Shown here: piece by piece, positions 15,001-21,000 of the stretch
Position numbering within the stretch: position 1 is the first letter of the stretch
How the letters are laid out: the number at the start of each line of letters is the position of its first letter
NCBI GenBank assembly: GCA_000165345.1
Contig: CM000429.1
Span: 768,001-832,000, forward strand
DNA length: 64,000 nucleotides
Direction of reading: 5' to 3'
Position numbers: made by a program

Positions 15001-18000
15001 AACTCAAACAAGACTGTTGAGATTGTTATCAGGTTTAATTCTGCAATTTGTCACGAATTAAAAGGATTCTATGCAAATGCCAATGACGAGTATAAAAGGC
15101 TTACATCTGAATTTCCTTGGTTTACTTCTGCTTGGCTTAGAAGAGCTTGTCTAGCTTTAGAAAGAAATGACTACCAACTTGCTGCTCAGTACTGTGAGCT
15201 CTCTTTAAATTCAAAATCTCCAGATATTGGAACGTTGAATTCAGGTTCAAACTCAGAACCAAACTCTGACACAAATTCAGTATATTCTTGGGCTCCTGGA
15301 ATAGGTAACAATCACGAATCTGCAAATCTCTTACTCTCCCATATTTATTTTTGTCAAAAGAAGCCTGATAAGAGTTTTAGTGCATTAAGTAAAGTTATAA
15401 AGTCAAAAAATACGTACTACTCTAATATTGGGAAAGTTCTTCTTGGGTTTGCACTTTACAATAAAGCCAAATATCAGTCTCAATCAAACTATTCAGGTGA
15501 AATGAGCATGTATAACCCAACAAGCATTCAGTCTAGACTTGTTTTATCGGAAGTACTCAGGCATGAATCATTTAATTATATTGCAAGTAATTTAATTCTT
15601 ATCCAAGCTGCGGAATGTGGACTATTTGAATCTTCCAAAGACATGTGGAAATATATGACAGATATTTCAAGTGCCTTGGAAGGTGCCGCCTCTTGCATGC
15701 ATTACGTGGCACTAATAAATTTAGGTGTTTTGCATGCGGTCTTATTGGCAGTTTCTACTCAGAGGAACCCGCCACCAGCCCAACATAATTTGACATTGAG
15801 ATCAATAGTGGATGATAATAATGTTGGTGGAATTGATGGAAGGAATGAGGTATTGGGTTCTCATCCTCACTTTGCGGAGCAGAAAAGAATTATGAAGACT
15901 ACGGTGAAGCTTTTCCAACAGGCATTACAGTTTGACCCCACAGAAAAGACTATCCATATGTCATTAATTAAGTGTTGTTTTGATATGAATATGTGGGAAG
16001 ATGCAAGAAAGTTGTTAGAGAAGGCAACTTTGAGGTGGCCAAGTGATCTGACTTTTAAGATAGGGCTTACATATTGTTTAGAGAGACTTGTATATTCTGA
16101 AATGGGAGATATGGAGAGAGCAAAACACCCAGGTAGGGTAAAGTACTGGATGATGTTATGTGAGGCGGTTGGAAACTTTTACCATTGGCTTTCAATTATT
16201 AAAGAGACCTTTCAAGTGGTTGATATGAAGTTTATTAATCAAATTAAGAATAATAAACTTAATGTTACATCGCTCCAAAAGTTTGTTCCAGGTATTGTTA
16301 TGCATAACCAGGATAATAAGATAGTTTTGAATACAGAAAATAAAGACGATCTTAGATACAAGTTATCAGCAATACCACTGGAAGGAACTGATTTGCTGCC
16401 AAATATTGAATATTTAACAAAACAGGAATTAATAATGAGTAGGAAGTTATATTCTAGATTCGAAGAACTTCTACCTATAGTTGAGCAAGTTTATGAGAAG
16501 GAGCAAAGGGATGTTGAGGAGTTACGAATTCGAAGTGAAGATTTTAGGAAGAAACAGGAAGAGGAGAGACGGAGAAAGGAGGAGGAGGAGAAGCTTGCTT
16601 CTGAGAGAATTAAGCTTCTTTCTATTGAGCTCGGAAAAGAAGCTGAAAGTATTGCAGCTAGCTTACCAGATATACAAGCTGAAAAGAGATCCAAATCTTC
16701 TAAACGAGATAGAAGCGATGACCTCGAAAGGCATGAAGAAGATGATGAAGATGATGATGACGAATTAGCTTCAGGAAATCAATCAGACCCATATACAGGT
16801 TCAGATTCTCAATCAGAAACTCGATCGAATTTGGACTCTTCTAGTGATGCAGAGGAAAAAAAGAGACAACATGCTTCAAAGTCCTCTAAGAATAAGGAAA
16901 AGAAGAGCAGAAAGGATAAAAAAAAGAAGAAAAAGCAAGAGGATAGAATCAGATCACTTAATATTAGCAGCGAAAACTCCCTTTCCAATTCTAACGAAGA
17001 GTCTGATGTTGAGCAAATTGGCTCCAAAATGCGTGATTCCGGTTCTGAATCCGACATCTTGGCATCAAAATTGAAGAAAAACAAGAAGAAAAAGTCAAAT
17101 TATGGCAAAAAAAAAGAGGAGAAAAGACTACTGAAACTCAAGCGTCTAGAAGAACAAACAGCTGCACTTCTAGAGGAGGAAGAGAAGGAAAAAAAAGAGG
17201 CTCAGCCCCAAGAAAACACAAATCATGATGGACTATCTGAAAATGAGAAGGAATTTGATCATGAAGAAAGTCAAGGTAGATTGAGATTGAAAAAGAGACG
17301 TTTTCAGGATACTGAAGATATAGATCTTCAGTTAGGAGGGGAGGATGAAAGTGGAAACACTAGTTTAGAGCAGAATAAAACTAATGTTCAATTGGAGATC
17401 CAAAATGATCAGGATCTGTCACTGCAAAATGATGATGGAAGTGTTAATGTAGATTTTGACAGTCGTTCTTAAGCTTTAACTCGGCTTTGTGCAATATATG
17501 TGTATATATATTACACCACGATTTTTTACCAATTGTTAAGTTTTATAATGTATTAATGTTTCTTTTTGTTTATTTTCCATTATTATTTAATTCTATACTA
17601 CTTTTGTCTTTGTTTAAATATATCCTACATCGATTTAGGGGTGTGGGGAGAACATGCAATTAAGGCGGTAAACTTTTTTATTTTTGGATACCTAAAAGAA
17701 ATACAAAAAAAAAAGCGAATATAATAATAAAAAAACAGTAGAGAAAATTATTTAAGTTAATGTAAAATAGGATTGAATACAATAAAGGTTGTTTTGATCT
17801 TCAATGAATTTTAGAATTTTAGTTTTCATTTTGCTCAAGTTAATTGGGTTCGCTGGGGTAAGTTGGGAGTAATGTTTCCAATACCTTAATTAAGAAACAA
17901 AAGGGAGAATATTGGAAATTTTTGAATATTACTTTACCTGAAACTTAATTTCTTTTATAGAAGTTTACTGGTGTATTTTCAGAAAACATAATCCTAAAGG

Positions 18001-21000
18001 ATTTAGACGATTGTTATCTCGATGAAGGACGACTTTGTGTTAATTCTACATCAGTTATACTGAATAGGGGAATGAACCCAGGAGGATTTCTTATATTGCG
18101 TTGTAATATTCAAGAATTGGGAAAAGGACAGAATATGAATCCACTTGTCCAGATTCAGGCATCAACAAGAACAAACTATACATCTCTGCTTTATAATATA
18201 AACGAAGACTCTGTAGAAATTCATGATTTATCTTGGTATCTTACAAGTAGTAAGACTATATTGCCAGATAATACAACTTTTTCAAGAAATGATACAATTC
18301 ACTTTGCTATTGGAATTGATACGAACTCTTTTTCTACTGTAAGTTAAGATTCCTCCTTTTTTTATTCTTTCCATGAACAAATTACTTTAAAAATTAATAC
18401 TAATTACCTAATATAGATTGTTATTAACTCAAAGAATGTTTTGAGACAGGGATTTAAAGGAAATGATCAATTAGTCAGGTTCAAAGTAAGTTTTGATTCA
18501 AACTAAATTATTTCTAATTAACTTCAATTTTAGTCTGTGAAATCTCAATATTGTTCTTGGAAATATGAAATGTCTCTTGTATTCCCTTCCACCAAACAAA
18601 ATGTTAAATACGTACCTGAACAAACAAATGCCACTGAATCAATTCAATCATCAAACAGCACAGAAAATGGTACTGAAAGTCTCGGTAGTACTTAGAAAGA
18701 TAGAAAGTAGACTATTTCTATCTGAAAAAAAAAACTTCATTTTCAGATGCATATTGATTTGCTGTTAAGCTCGTAACTCTGCATAAGATTGCTCGTCATT
18801 TTCAGCTTGGTCTTGTCCCTTTATCTTTAAATCATTGCTAATTTACTAAATTTTGTCTAATTATATTTTTTTCCGCAATGATTTTATTCTTCGTGATTAC
18901 AATATTATTTATATATCCATTTTTGACACGTAATTTTTTTGGTGCATGCATTTATGTGGACAAACCATATGATAGCAGTAAATACCGGCAAGTTTTGTCA
19001 TAAAAATACAAAATTTCTCAGAAAAAAAAAAATTGTGCACACTTTCTGGAATTAAAAATTTCAATATTATGCCTTTTAAATAATTTTACCATATATTACA
19101 ATAAGGAAAAGATTTGGAAATATACTAAGATGTATAAAAAAGAATTGAAATAAAATTTTATCTAATAAAAAATGAATAAAATGGAAAATAATAATAAATT
19201 AAACAAAAATGGAATATAATAATGAGTTCTATTTGCTAATTCCTTCTTTTAATTAAAGAAAAAACAAATCAACTTTGAGAAATCTAAATTTCGACTTTTT
19301 TTTTGTGCCCCTTCCCCCATTCAAATTTTAACGGTTAAAAAAAAATGCGTGGGGATTGCATTTGTGCCCCATTTAATGCACTAAAAAACAGGATACCAGT
19401 CGAGTAATTGGATAAATAAATAATAATTAAAATATAATTAGTATATTATACTTATTAAAAGCAGTAATATAGTTTAAAAGTTACATGGAATAATTTCGAG
19501 TTGGATAAATATAAATATATATTTCATTGATATTAATAGATATTACAAGATTTAAACAGGGGATTTCATTTGTGAGAATTGAAAAATAAAATATTGAAGA
19601 AGAATTCGTTATTTGAAATAAGCAATGATGAATTCAGTTAAAACAATGATTTTCAATGGAATCATTACAGTATATTTGCTGTTGATAACAGGAATATACA
19701 GTGAAAGAATGTTAATGAAAGAAAGTAAGTAAAAATATAATTTGAAAAGTGACCAATTTAATCCAGAAATTAAAACTCATAAATTCTAGATTTGAGAAAT
19801 TTGATTGCGAATGAAGACATATCAGCAGACAACTGCATGAGAAAGTTCTTAATGTTAAAAACTGATTTAAATGATATTACAACAAATCCAACAAAACGTA
19901 ATCCAGTACCACAGGATTACATGAAATCTACGGTAAGTTGTTCCAATAAAAAAGAGTTAATTTATTATGAATTAAGCCAATTCTTAGACTTTAACTCTTT
20001 TTTATTATTTTTTTTTTTTTCCTAATATTAATATAACTATTCTAGTATGCAAATAGTGATCGTAAATTTACTGCATTATCTGGTCCATCAATGCTTGATT
20101 TGGAATCAGAAGTTTGTATGAGCCAATATGGATATAAATTTCCAGTAACAAAGAGTTTACTCCCAACAATATATCCATATTTATCAATTCAGTTTATTGC
20201 GCAGGTTGAAAATTCAAAAGTTTCTAGATTTGGCTTTGTTTGTTCAGACTCATTATCTTATGCAGTAGTTGATTGCAATCAAGGAACAGTGAAAATTGCA
20301 GTATTATTACCAAGTAGAACAGGTAGCTCTGAACCAACTTTGCATTCAATCAATCTTCCGACAGGTTTAAAATGTGGAAATCCGTCAGCTCAATCATGGG
20401 TAGAGTCTAGGTTAATATTTCAAGAAAAGTCAATGAACGACCCATTATTAGTTAAGGGAGTGGGGCCATTTACTTCAGTCTGGACTTACTCAACAGATTT
20501 GAATGAACATACTAGAAGTTTTGAATTCCCTAATCCCTGTCCATCAAGAGAAGTACTATTTTTCACTAGTGGATTTAAAAATGTTCAAACTCAAATGATA
20601 CCAAGAAGTTTATTTGATATGAAATTTTCAACACCAAACTCTAATTTGTTATTACCATTTGAAACAGCATCTTCTTATGTAATATATGGTACTCAAAAGT
20701 ATAATTTGGAGACATTTTCTATTTCAATGGGATTACCAAACTATCCAGATCAGAAATTAGTATATGAGACAAGCTCGAGTGATATTTTATCTTTGGAAAA
20801 TCAAAATAAGACAATTTCAGGAAAGCCTATTTTTGTTCATATAAGCCTACTTCCATTCACAGAACAAATTTCACTTTCAGTTAATAACAAAGCTCAAAAC
20901 ATTAATAAGAATTCATATATGATTTGGGATAAGAAAGATATTGAAAATAATGAAGAAATGGATTCAAAGACCATATTTAAGAAAGGAGCACCTGAACTTT

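What the first reader, a model, noticed from the sequence alone, without database searches (positions are those of the whole stretch)
17804..18695. Unannotated-looking four-exon gene for a small secreted N-glycosylated protein whose signal peptide is a separate 18-codon exon
MNFRILVFILLKLIGFAG is immediately followed by GTAAGT. Three further exons are in phase 0 and are bounded by GTAAGT donors and (t)nAG acceptors. They give a 220-aa product with at least seven N-glycosylation sequons and a Ser/Thr-rich end. The ORF track shows only the internal 91-aa piece (18072..18347). The gene lies directly upstream of the mucin gene, forming a small cluster of intron-rich secreted-glycoprotein genes.
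Basis: seen in the sequence. Interest (0 to 1): 0.55.

Follow-up and report, generated by a model that had tools for sequence, protein, structure and literature searches.

The report
Already-annotated small secreted Cryptosporidium glycoprotein gene

Summary
Exons 17804-17857, 17961-18338, 18417-18485 and 18534-18695 are joined by three GTAAGT...AG introns of 103, 78 and 48 nt. They give a 220-aa protein with 7 sequons.

The gene is not unannotated. The window is C. parvum chromosome 1. The exact 220-aa sequence and the same 892-nt span are in GenBank as CPATCC_0035730 (QOY43268.1) and cpbgf_1003543. Only the older annotations lacked it: C. hominis TU502 carried just the 91-aa ORF, and a 2015 orthologue table has no entry between cgd1_3540 and cgd1_3550.

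Seven orthologous loci, from C. ubiquitum to the gastric species C. serpentis, keep the same neighbours and the 54-nt first exon. Five of them could be mapped exactly. In these the 69-nt third exon is unchanged and the second exon is 378 or 381 nt. Their intron lengths vary and are mostly not multiples of three. dN/dS is 0.13.

The protein has one N-terminal hydrophobic segment, four invariant cysteines and sequons that are all NxT. It has no Pfam, PDB or non-Cryptosporidium sequence relative.

One low-confidence AlphaFold model resembles galectin-fold proteins, including Toxoplasma M2AP. That is a lead only.

Verdict: a correct gene model, already known, of low interest.

The parts
17641..17694 (+). 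Conserved upstream block, probably a promoter element. It reads GTGTGGGGAGAACATGCAATTAAGGCGGTAAAC followed by TTTGGATACCTA, and lies 110-163 nt upstream of the ATG.
   Evidence: [quoted passage not shown] It is not recognisable in C. bovis, C. ryanae or C. serpentis. The promoter role is an inference and was not tested.
17804..17857 (+). Exon 1: 18 codons, MNFRILVFILLKLIGFAG, the signal peptide.
   Evidence: It holds the only strongly hydrophobic stretch of the protein (Kyte-Doolittle maximum at residues 1-20). An 18-codon first exon followed by a GT donor is present in all seven orthologous loci. In C. felis and C. ryanae the annotation missed it.
17858..17960 (+). Intron 1: 103 nt, GTAAGT...tatAG. 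A tandem alternative acceptor (AAG) ends at 17963.
   Evidence: The length is 1 mod 3, and this restores the frame between exons 1 and 2. The orthologous introns are 101, 106, 99, 84 and 56 nt. The 219-aa annotations use the +3 acceptor.
17961..18338 (+). Exon 2: 378 nt, residues 19-144. It holds most of the conserved cysteine-containing beta-rich domain.
   Evidence: [quoted passage not shown] C36, C44 and C66 are invariant, as is the N90 sequon.
18339..18416 (+). Intron 2: 78 nt, GTAAGT...tatAG. It carries an in-frame stop.
   Evidence: The orthologous introns are 62, 59, 61 and 74 nt, none a multiple of three.
18417..18485 (+). Exon 3: 69 nt, residues 145-167.
   Evidence: It is 69 nt in all five species that were mapped exactly. 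The sequence IV.NS...R..FKG..L..F is invariant or nearly so.
18486..18533 (+). Intron 3: 48 nt, GTAAGT...tttAG.
   Evidence: The orthologous introns are 76, 57, 73 and 89 nt.
18534..18695 (+). Exon 4: residues 168-220 plus the TAG stop. It holds the end of the domain (C174, W176) and a variable Ser/Thr/Asn-rich tail with three N-x-T sequons.
   Evidence: The tail differs in length and sequence between species but keeps its sequons.

Best explanation
This is the real, spliced, protein-coding gene already annotated as CPATCC_0035730 / cpbgf_1003543, with orthologues named ..._1g3545 in other annotations. It lies on Cryptosporidium parvum chromosome 1 and belongs to a single-copy family found only in this genus.

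Shown: the exon-intron structure, the identity with the existing annotation, conservation across the genus, and purifying selection.

Inferred from the sequence:
- Exon 1 encodes a cleavable signal peptide that sends the protein into the ER. Cleavage is probably near A17/G18, close to the exon boundary.
- The mature protein of about 200 residues is soluble. It has no second hydrophobic segment, no GPI-type tail and no KDEL/HDEL ending.
- It folds into an all-beta domain (about residues 36-190), probably held by two disulfides formed from four invariant cysteines.
- It is N-glycosylated at N-x-T sites. N90 is kept in 10 of 10 sequences, and N46 and N128 in 9 of 10.
- It ends in a short, disordered, glycosylated tail.
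- It then leaves by the secretory pathway, either to an apical organelle or to the outside.

Tentative: the beta domain may be a galectin-type sandwich that binds a protein or a glycan. Its biochemical function has not been tested.
For: - Identity: the 220-aa product is an exact match to QOY43268.1, WRK30753.1 and UniProt A0A7S7LJP5. The window is 99.96% identical to C. parvum IOWA-ATCC CP044422.1, and the gene span is identical.
[quoted passage not shown] The BGF annotation that inherited the model also drew on Iso-Seq data (PMC12179316).
- Comparative support: orthologues sit in the same place, with a TPR protein upstream and a roughly 1500-aa Apple-domain protein downstream. This holds in C. 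ubiquitum, C. canis, C. felis, C. bovis, C. ryanae and C. serpentis.
- Exon lengths are conserved while intron lengths vary and are mostly not multiples of three.
- Against C. ubiquitum, exons are 74-87% identical and introns 57-74%.
- dN/dS against C. ubiquitum is 0.13, and 79 of 131 differences are at third codon positions.
- A Logan contig, L008, carries an intron-free 235-aa orthologue, as a spliced transcript would.
- Secretory features: one N-terminal hydrophobic segment only; four invariant cysteines; seven of seven sequons are N-x-T (P = 0.0006). This matches the reported preference of Cryptosporidium N-glycosylation for Thr sites (PMC12019905).
- Beta-rich: both AlphaFold runs predict only strands after the signal helix.
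Against: - I could not see any RNA-seq junction reads or peptides for this gene. No paper in the library mentions its identifiers, and the supplements I searched do not list it.
- No signal-peptide predictor was available. The h-region contains a lysine (K12), and residue -3 of the simplest cleavage site is not clearly small.
- Glycan occupancy and secretion are untested.
- The total sequon count is not significantly above chance (P = 0.08).
- Structure prediction is of low confidence: pLDDT 33 and 45.5.
- Annotators disagree on details. There are 219-aa versions without K19, a 216-aa C. hominis UKH1 version with a different intron 3 donor, and a 165-aa C. tyzzeri version that starts at M56.
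Confidence: 0.85

Rival explanations
1. The protein is an M2AP-like or MIC1-GLD-like escorter. It would be a soluble microneme protein whose galectin-fold domain binds a transmembrane or large adhesin in the ER. It would travel with that adhesin to the micronemes and the sporozoite surface, as Toxoplasma M2AP does with the sixth TSR domain of MIC2. Candidate partners are a TSR protein such as TRAP-C1, or the neighbouring Apple-domain protein cgd1_3550.
For: - All of the top 50 Foldseek hits are galectins.
- The architecture matches M2AP: leader peptide, short linker, beta domain, then an unstructured C-terminal region (PMC10471735).
- Galectin folds serve protein-protein binding in M2AP and MIC1 (PMC13162539).
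- Galectin-like domains have been modelled in other Cryptosporidium adhesins, CpTSP7-9 (PMC10034466).
- The neighbours include a likely micronemal Apple protein and two TSR/PAN adhesin genes about 14 kb upstream.
Against: - The model has pLDDT 45.5 and pTM 0.40. Only one of five models in one of two runs folded.
- There is no sequence-level signal. No Pfam family matched at E up to 10. No PDB chain matched below E = 0.17, and neither of the two weak matches is M2AP or a galectin. hhalign probability against galectin-1 and galectin-3 was below 1%.
- The two weak aligned fragments are not compatible with a single collinear galectin alignment.
- Gene proximity means little in a eukaryote.
- No localisation or interaction data exist.
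Confidence: 0.12
2. The protein is a resident of the ER, Golgi or another internal compartment, with a parasite-internal role such as folding or sorting of secretory cargo. Alternatively it is a structural glycoprotein of one life-cycle stage, for example of the oocyst wall. In either case it would not be a factor at the host interface.
For: - It is single-copy and conserved across the whole genus, with 44% identity to the gastric species C. serpentis and 60% to C. bovis.
- Purifying selection is strong (dN/dS 0.13). This is unlike what I recall of Cryptosporidium host-exposed antigens and subtelomeric effector families, which diverge fast. That comparison rests on my own knowledge and was not tested here.
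Against: - There is no KDEL/HDEL-type ending and no membrane anchor.
- No relative was found outside Cryptosporidium among 1.84 billion representative proteins. That is unusual for core secretory machinery.
Confidence: 0.2
3. The N-terminal hydrophobic segment is an uncleaved signal anchor, making this a type II membrane protein. The C. meleagridis UniRef entry calls its orthologue an 'integral membrane protein'.
For: - The name given to the C. meleagridis orthologue.
- The cleavage-site residues are not textbook (what the sequence shows).
Against: - The hydrophobic run is only about 13 residues (I5-A17) and is interrupted by K12. It is shorter than a typical membrane span of about 20 residues.
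- Its sequence is poorly conserved between species while its length, 18 codons, is fixed. That pattern is typical of signal peptides.
Confidence: 0.07
4. The model is a chance concatenation of short ORFs, or a pseudogene.
For: Only the 91-aa and 52-aa pieces appear as plain ORFs.
Against: - The structure is conserved across the genus.
- dN/dS is 0.13.
- Intron lengths preserve the frame only through splicing.
- Several groups annotated the gene independently.
Confidence: 0.01

Closest known systems
C. parvum CPATCC_0035730 (QOY43268.1) = cpbgf_1003543 (WRK30753.1), UniProt A0A7S7LJP5, 'uncharacterized protein'
   Same: The 220-aa sequence is identical, and so are the 892-nt gene span and the exon structure.
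   Different: Nothing. It is the same gene. By the BGF naming rule (cgd6_1080 becomes cpbgf_6001080; PMC12179316), the legacy-style identifier would be cgd1_3543. That is my inference and I did not see it in any source.
Orthologues CHM_1g3545 / CPHLJ_1g3545 (219 aa), ChUKH1_18185 (216 aa), CTYZ_00003951 (165 aa) and C. hominis TU502 XP_666702.1 (91 aa)
   Same: They occupy the same locus and are 98-99% identical over the shared residues.
   Different: The differences lie in the gene models, not the biology. They use the +3 tandem acceptor (no K19), a different intron 3 donor (no VRFK), a start at M56, or only the internal ORF. The K/R at position 19 and the L(T/V)xFK segment are conserved in other species, which favours the 220-aa model.
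Toxoplasma gondii MIC2-associated protein M2AP (PDB 8j64_A) and the TgMIC1 galectin-like domain (2k2s_A)
   Different: No sequence similarity is detectable. The size and cysteine pattern were not compared. No partner, localisation or propeptide processing is known for the Cryptosporidium protein. According to the paper read, M2AP orthologues occur in coccidians (Besnoitia, Cystoisospora, Neospora, Eimeria).
Galectins (Pfam PF00337), e.g. C. elegans LEC-6 and human galectin-3, -4 and -8
   Different: There is no Pfam match even at E up to 10. hhalign probability is below 1%. Read by eye, I could not place the canonical H-x-N-x-R ... N ... W-x-E-x-R sugar-binding signature at compatible spacing. 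To my knowledge galectins lack signal peptides and structural disulfides, whereas this protein has a signal peptide and four invariant cysteines.
Cryptosporidium mucin-type glycoproteins (gp40/15, gp900, and the neighbouring cgd1_3550 with its Thr run)
   Same: All have a signal peptide and predicted glycosylation, and all are encoded in the same compact genome. The immediate neighbour is one of them.
   Different: This protein has no long Ser/Thr/Pro repeat domain, only a 25-residue tail. It has no Pfam Mucin hit. Its predicted glycans are N-linked, on a folded and well-conserved domain.

Membership tests
Annotated C. parvum gene CPATCC_0035730 / cpbgf_1003543 | Identical protein sequence from first to last residue | tested here: met
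   An exact-sequence look-up found the 220-aa product under QOY43268.1 and WRK30753.1.
Annotated C. parvum gene CPATCC_0035730 / cpbgf_1003543 | Same genomic span and same neighbours | tested here: met
   In L006 (CP044422.1) the gene lies at 10001-10892, and this stretch is identical base for base to window 17804-18695. The flanking 1500-aa TPR gene and the downstream genes match.
Spliceosomal multi-exon protein-coding gene | GT-AG introns whose removal restores one open frame; positions conserved in orthologues while lengths vary | tested here: met
   Intron positions and phases are conserved in the five species mapped exactly. Lengths run from 48 to 106 nt and are mostly not multiples of three.
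Spliceosomal multi-exon protein-coding gene | Junction-spanning transcript reads | not testable with these tools
   The evidence is indirect only. PMC8744675 states that all CpIA introns are supported by RNA-seq. Logan contig L008 carries an intron-free orthologue.
Classical secretory protein with a cleavable signal peptide | N-terminal n/h/c regions, with no other membrane segment | tested here: met
   The n-region is MNFR and the hydrophobic stretch is residues 5-17. The Kyte-Doolittle maximum is at residues 1-20 only, and the C-terminal 30 residues average -0.96.
Classical secretory protein with a cleavable signal peptide | Predicted or observed cleavage site | not testable with these tools
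   No SignalP-type predictor was available. G15-F16-A17|G18 fits the small residues at -3/-1 rule only by eye.
N-glycoprotein | N-x-S/T sequons in a lumenal domain, conserved between species | tested here: met
   There are seven sequons, all N-x-T (P = 0.0006 for the N-x-T count). N90 is present in 10/10 sequences, N46 and N128 in 9/10.
N-glycoprotein | Glycan actually attached | not testable with these tools
   This needs PNGase F treatment or glycoproteomics. The key glycoproteome paper (PMC5393390) is not held.
Mucin-type glycoprotein | Extended Ser/Thr(/Pro)-rich repeat domain | tested here: not met
   Only the last 25 residues are Ser/Thr-rich (11 of 25). There is no Pfam Mucin hit and there are no repeats.
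Galectin (PF00337) | Match to the family sequence profile | tested here: not met
   No Pfam family matched at E up to 10 for any of nine members. hhalign probability against galectin-1 and galectin-3 was 0.9% and 0.3%.
Galectin (PF00337) | Galectin-type two-sheet beta-sandwich fold | tested here: inconclusive
Galectin (PF00337) | Carbohydrate-binding signature residues (H, N, R ... N ... W, E, R) | tested here: not met
   I found no arrangement of conserved residues with compatible spacing when reading the alignments.
M2AP-type microneme escorter | Sequence homology to M2AP | tested here: not met
   A profile search of all PDB chains, which include 8j64_A, found nothing related at E up to 10.
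M2AP-type microneme escorter | Leader peptide + galectin-like beta domain + unstructured C-terminal region | tested here: inconclusive
   The layout is compatible, but the fold rests on a low-confidence model.
M2AP-type microneme escorter | Binds a TSR adhesin and co-traffics to micronemes | not testable with these tools
   This needs tagging, co-immunoprecipitation or a confident complex prediction.
Multi-copy Cryptosporidium secreted families (MEDLE, SKSR, WYLE, FLGN and others) | Paralogous gene family | tested here: not met
   A profile search of 1.84 billion representatives returns only orthologue clusters and fragments of them, with no paralogues. None of the name-giving motifs occurs in the sequence (read by eye). 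The locus is syntenic and internal on the chromosome.

The most novel reading that the evidence does not exclude
The protein is the long-missing Cryptosporidium counterpart of the coccidian galectin-fold escorters M2AP and MIC1-GLD. It would be a soluble beta-sandwich protein that pairs in the ER with a TSR or Apple-domain adhesin and is needed to deliver that adhesin to the micronemes and the sporozoite surface. TRAP-C1 and other CpTSPs lie about 14 kb upstream, and the Apple protein cgd1_3550 is next door. If so, the 'adhesin plus galectin-fold chaperone' arrangement would predate the split between Cryptosporidium and the coccidians.
Probability: 0.1. Interest if true: 0.55.

Novelty: already known. 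Interest (0 to 1): 0.15.

Why it matters
As a gene model it adds nothing, because the same model is already in GenBank for several Cryptosporidium species. It does show that the first-stage reader can rebuild a four-exon gene exactly from raw sequence.

The protein itself is a small, strongly conserved, genus-specific secretory glycoprotein that nobody has characterised. Proteins of this kind are candidates for invasion factors, diagnostics or vaccine antigens. The tentative galectin/M2AP-like fold gives a concrete hypothesis that is cheap to test.

Side results may help annotators:
- the signal-peptide exon missing from the C. felis and C. ryanae models;
- the tandem acceptor behind the 219-aa versus 220-aa discrepancy;
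- a probable signal-peptide-bearing N-terminus for the micronemal protein cgd1_3550.

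Tried and rejected
- Pfam on the protein and on nine family members, at E up to 10: nothing.
- Profile search of all PDB sequences: two chance-level hits only, RexA at E = 0.17 and an agarase at E = 0.66.
- Profile search of 1.84 billion representative proteins: only Cryptosporidium, plus one bacterial repeat protein (P0019) at E = 1e-4. P0019 is made of HYDIN/ASH-type Ig-like domains. hhalign gives that link 6.5% probability, so I rejected it as a compositional match.
- The Cryptosporidium 'galectin-like protein' of a 2026 preprint is a different gene, on chromosome 3 (QOY42690.1).
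- Literature searches for every identifier of this gene found no paper.
- Supplements gave no expression or localisation data. [quoted passage not shown] Those of PMC13241007 and PMC12782386 do not list the gene.
- The hyperLOPIT paper, the single-cell atlas and the N-glycoproteome paper are not held.
- The AFDB Foldseek library was unavailable.
- An alternative acceptor for intron 1 at 17982 (ttttcAG) is out of frame and was rejected (reading; frames).

Full report
**What is in the sequence.** The window is AT-rich, about 30% G+C. At 17804 an ATG opens 18 codons, MNFRILVFILLKLIGFAG, which run directly into GTAAGT at 17858. In another frame three open stretches follow, each ending at a GTAAGT or at the stop. 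Joining 17804-17857, 17961-18338, 18417-18485 and 18534-18695 gives a 663-nt coding sequence and a 220-aa product. All junctions are phase 0. The introns are 103, 78 and 48 nt, run GTAAGT...AG, and are 19-26% G+C against 29-35% for the exons.

GTAAGT is not enriched in the window as a whole: 22 on the plus strand against 22.6 expected. Three fall in these 892 nt where 0.31 are expected, and each marks a break in the reading frame. A stop codon lies immediately before exon 2 in its frame. Residues 19-55 can therefore be translated only if exon 1 is spliced on.

**Identity.** A protein search returned Cryptosporidium proteins only. It is UniProt A0A7S7LJP5. The annotated gene in CP044422.1 spans exactly the 892 nt of the finding, and the DNA there is identical. 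The surrounding 20.9 kb is 99.96% identical to the window. So the window is C. parvum chromosome 1, and the gene is annotated with this exact model.

The gene looks unannotated only against older work. C. hominis TU502 (2004) had just the 91-aa ORF, XP_666702.1. The orthologue table of the 2015 reannotation passes from cgd1_3540 to cgd1_3550 with nothing between them. [quoted passage not shown] The BGF annotation reused it and added Iso-Seq data (PMC12179316). I could not see the reads themselves.

**Comparative test of the junctions.** I fetched the orthologous loci of C. ubiquitum, C. canis, C. felis, C. bovis, C. ryanae and C. serpentis. All have the same neighbours: a TPR protein of about 1500 aa upstream and an Apple-domain protein of about 1500 aa downstream.
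- Mapping the annotated proteins onto the DNA gives exon lengths of 54/378/69 nt in C. parvum, C. ubiquitum and C. canis. C. felis has the same second and third exons, and C. bovis has 54/381/69.
- Intron lengths are 99-106, 59-78 and 48-89 nt, and most are not multiples of three. The frame therefore survives only through splicing.
- The C. felis and C. ryanae models lack a signal peptide. In both, an unannotated 18-codon exon followed by a GT donor lies just upstream, at L003 3102-3155 (MKLWCLFLTLLQIICLLE) and L005 2890-2943 (MNLIIIVSTLLGFIQLSK). C. serpentis also has an 18-codon first exon.
- Against C. ubiquitum, exons are 74-87% identical and introns 57-74%. dN/dS is 0.13, and 79 of 131 differences fall at third codon positions.
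- A 1121-nt Logan contig (SRR26126307) carries an uninterrupted 235-aa orthologue. A spliced transcript is the simplest explanation, but I could not check what kind of sequencing run it came from.

**Disagreements between annotations.**
- The acceptor of intron 1 is a tandem tatAG|AAG. The 219-aa versions (CHM_1g3545, CPHLJ_1g3545) use the downstream AG and drop K19.
- A C. hominis UKH1 model uses another donor for intron 3 and drops VRFK.
- A C. tyzzeri model starts at M56.
- Conservation of K/R19 and of L(T/V)xFK in other species favours the 220-aa model. Both acceptors could still be used.

**What the protein looks like.**
- The only hydrophobic stretch is at residues 1-20. The C-terminal 30 residues are hydrophilic, and there is no KDEL/HDEL ending.
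- Four cysteines (C36, C44, C66, C174) are invariant in ten sequences.
- There are seven sequons. That count is not clearly above chance for so Asn/Ser/Thr-rich a protein (4.0 expected, P = 0.08). All seven are N-x-T, however (1.7 expected, P = 0.0006). This matches the reported Thr preference of Cryptosporidium N-glycosylation, cited in PMC12019905.
- N90 is kept in 10/10 sequences, and N46 and N128 in 9/10. The tail beyond residue 195 varies in length and sequence but keeps its sequons.
- Both AlphaFold runs predict only beta strands after the N-terminal helix.

Taken together, this is a soluble secretory-pathway glycoprotein with a disulfide-stabilised beta domain and a short glycosylated tail. 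It is not a mucin.

**Relatives and fold.** No Pfam family matches, even at E up to 10, in any of nine members. No PDB sequence matches. A profile search of 1.84 billion representative proteins finds only Cryptosporidium and one weak bacterial Ig-repeat protein. I reject that bacterial hit because hhalign gives it 6.5% probability.

M2AP is built of a leader peptide, a propeptide, a galectin-like beta domain and a coil region, and it escorts the TSR adhesin MIC2 (PMC10471735; PMC13162539). The layout resembles this protein. The neighbourhood also holds a likely micronemal Apple protein (cgd1_3550; PMC8710574) and two TSR/PAN genes. Against this, there is no sequence support and the model is of low confidence. 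I keep it as a lead at about 10% probability.

**The claimed cluster.** The downstream 925-aa ORF is cgd1_3550. The immunogen peptide EKNTEQNTEF, at positions 687-696 in that paper, is in the ORF. It has a PAN/Apple domain and a Thr run. Eleven of the window's 22 plus-strand GTAAGT sites lie between 17858 and 24806, so both genes are unusually intron-rich for this genome. The two proteins are unrelated in sequence. The 'cluster' is therefore two adjacent secretory genes, not a family.

**Verdict.** The interpretation as a secreted N-glycoprotein is reasonable. The claim that the gene is unannotated is wrong for current annotations. The gene is already known as an uncharacterised protein, and its function remains open.

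Noticed in passing
window 19625-20059 and 20091-22868 (continuing to about 24986): cgd1_3550 was published as a likely micronemal Apple-domain protein of 925 aa with no signal peptide (PMC8710574). It appears to have two upstream exons. The first is 19625-19724, a signal peptide (MMNSVKTMIFNGIITVYLLLITGIYS...) with a GTAAGT donor at 19725. The second is 19790-19932, with a GTAAGT donor at 19933. The acceptor ending at 20045 joins these in frame to the 925-aa ORF. IOWA-ATCC instead annotates a separate 81-aa gene, using the acceptor ending at 20056, which runs straight into TGA, and then a 1473-aa gene. The C. canis, C. bovis, C. ryanae and C. serpentis annotations start the large protein with a signal-peptide-like exon followed by a GT donor; only the C. 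canis exon was seen to resemble the C. parvum one. The C. ubiquitum model starts in the second exon.
   Followed up: partly
L003 3102-3155 (C. felis); L005 2890-2943 (C. ryanae): The annotated orthologues in C. felis (HWI79_2085, 236 aa) and C. ryanae (FG386_002878, 216 aa) lack a signal peptide. In both, a conserved 18-codon signal-peptide exon with a GT donor lies just upstream and was missed.
   Followed up: yes
window 17956-17966: Intron 1 has a tandem (NAGNAG-type) acceptor, tatAG|AAG. This explains why annotations give either 220 aa or 219 aa (without K19). C. ubiquitum has the same tandem; C. canis does not.
   Followed up: partly
window 17641-17694: [quoted passage not shown] It contains a G-rich box, CATGCA and GGCGG(G/T)AA, followed by TTTGGATACCTA. 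These resemble the G-box, AP2 and E2F-type motifs that I recall being described upstream of Cryptosporidium genes.
   Followed up: partly
window 258-2354 (-), 3099-4622 (+), 5437-7107 (-), 10391-10993 (-): Two thrombospondin-repeat/PAN adhesin genes lie upstream, followed by an AP2 transcription factor gene and an RRM protein gene. This is the TRAP-C1 / CpTSP region, since a cited paper names cgd1_3500 as TRAP-C1. With cgd1_3550, that makes three adhesin-type genes within 25 kb.
   Followed up: no
window 17858-24806: Half of all plus-strand GTAAGT hexamers in the 64-kb window (11 of 22) fall in these 7 kb. This marks two adjacent, unusually intron-rich genes.
   Followed up: partly
L008 (Logan SRR26126307, 1121 nt), 329-1036: An intron-free 235-aa orthologue from an unidentified, more GC-rich Cryptosporidium that looks closest to C. 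bovis and C. ryanae in the alignment. It is probably an assembled spliced transcript. L009 (SRR31860986) is a genomic contig from another unidentified species in which a gene caller read straight through intron 2.
   Followed up: partly
window 22865-22868: The stop codon of the 925-aa ORF (TAA) lies inside a GTAAGT donor. The 2004 model of cgd1_3550 was therefore also truncated at its 3' end. The current model continues through further exons to 1473 aa.
   Followed up: no
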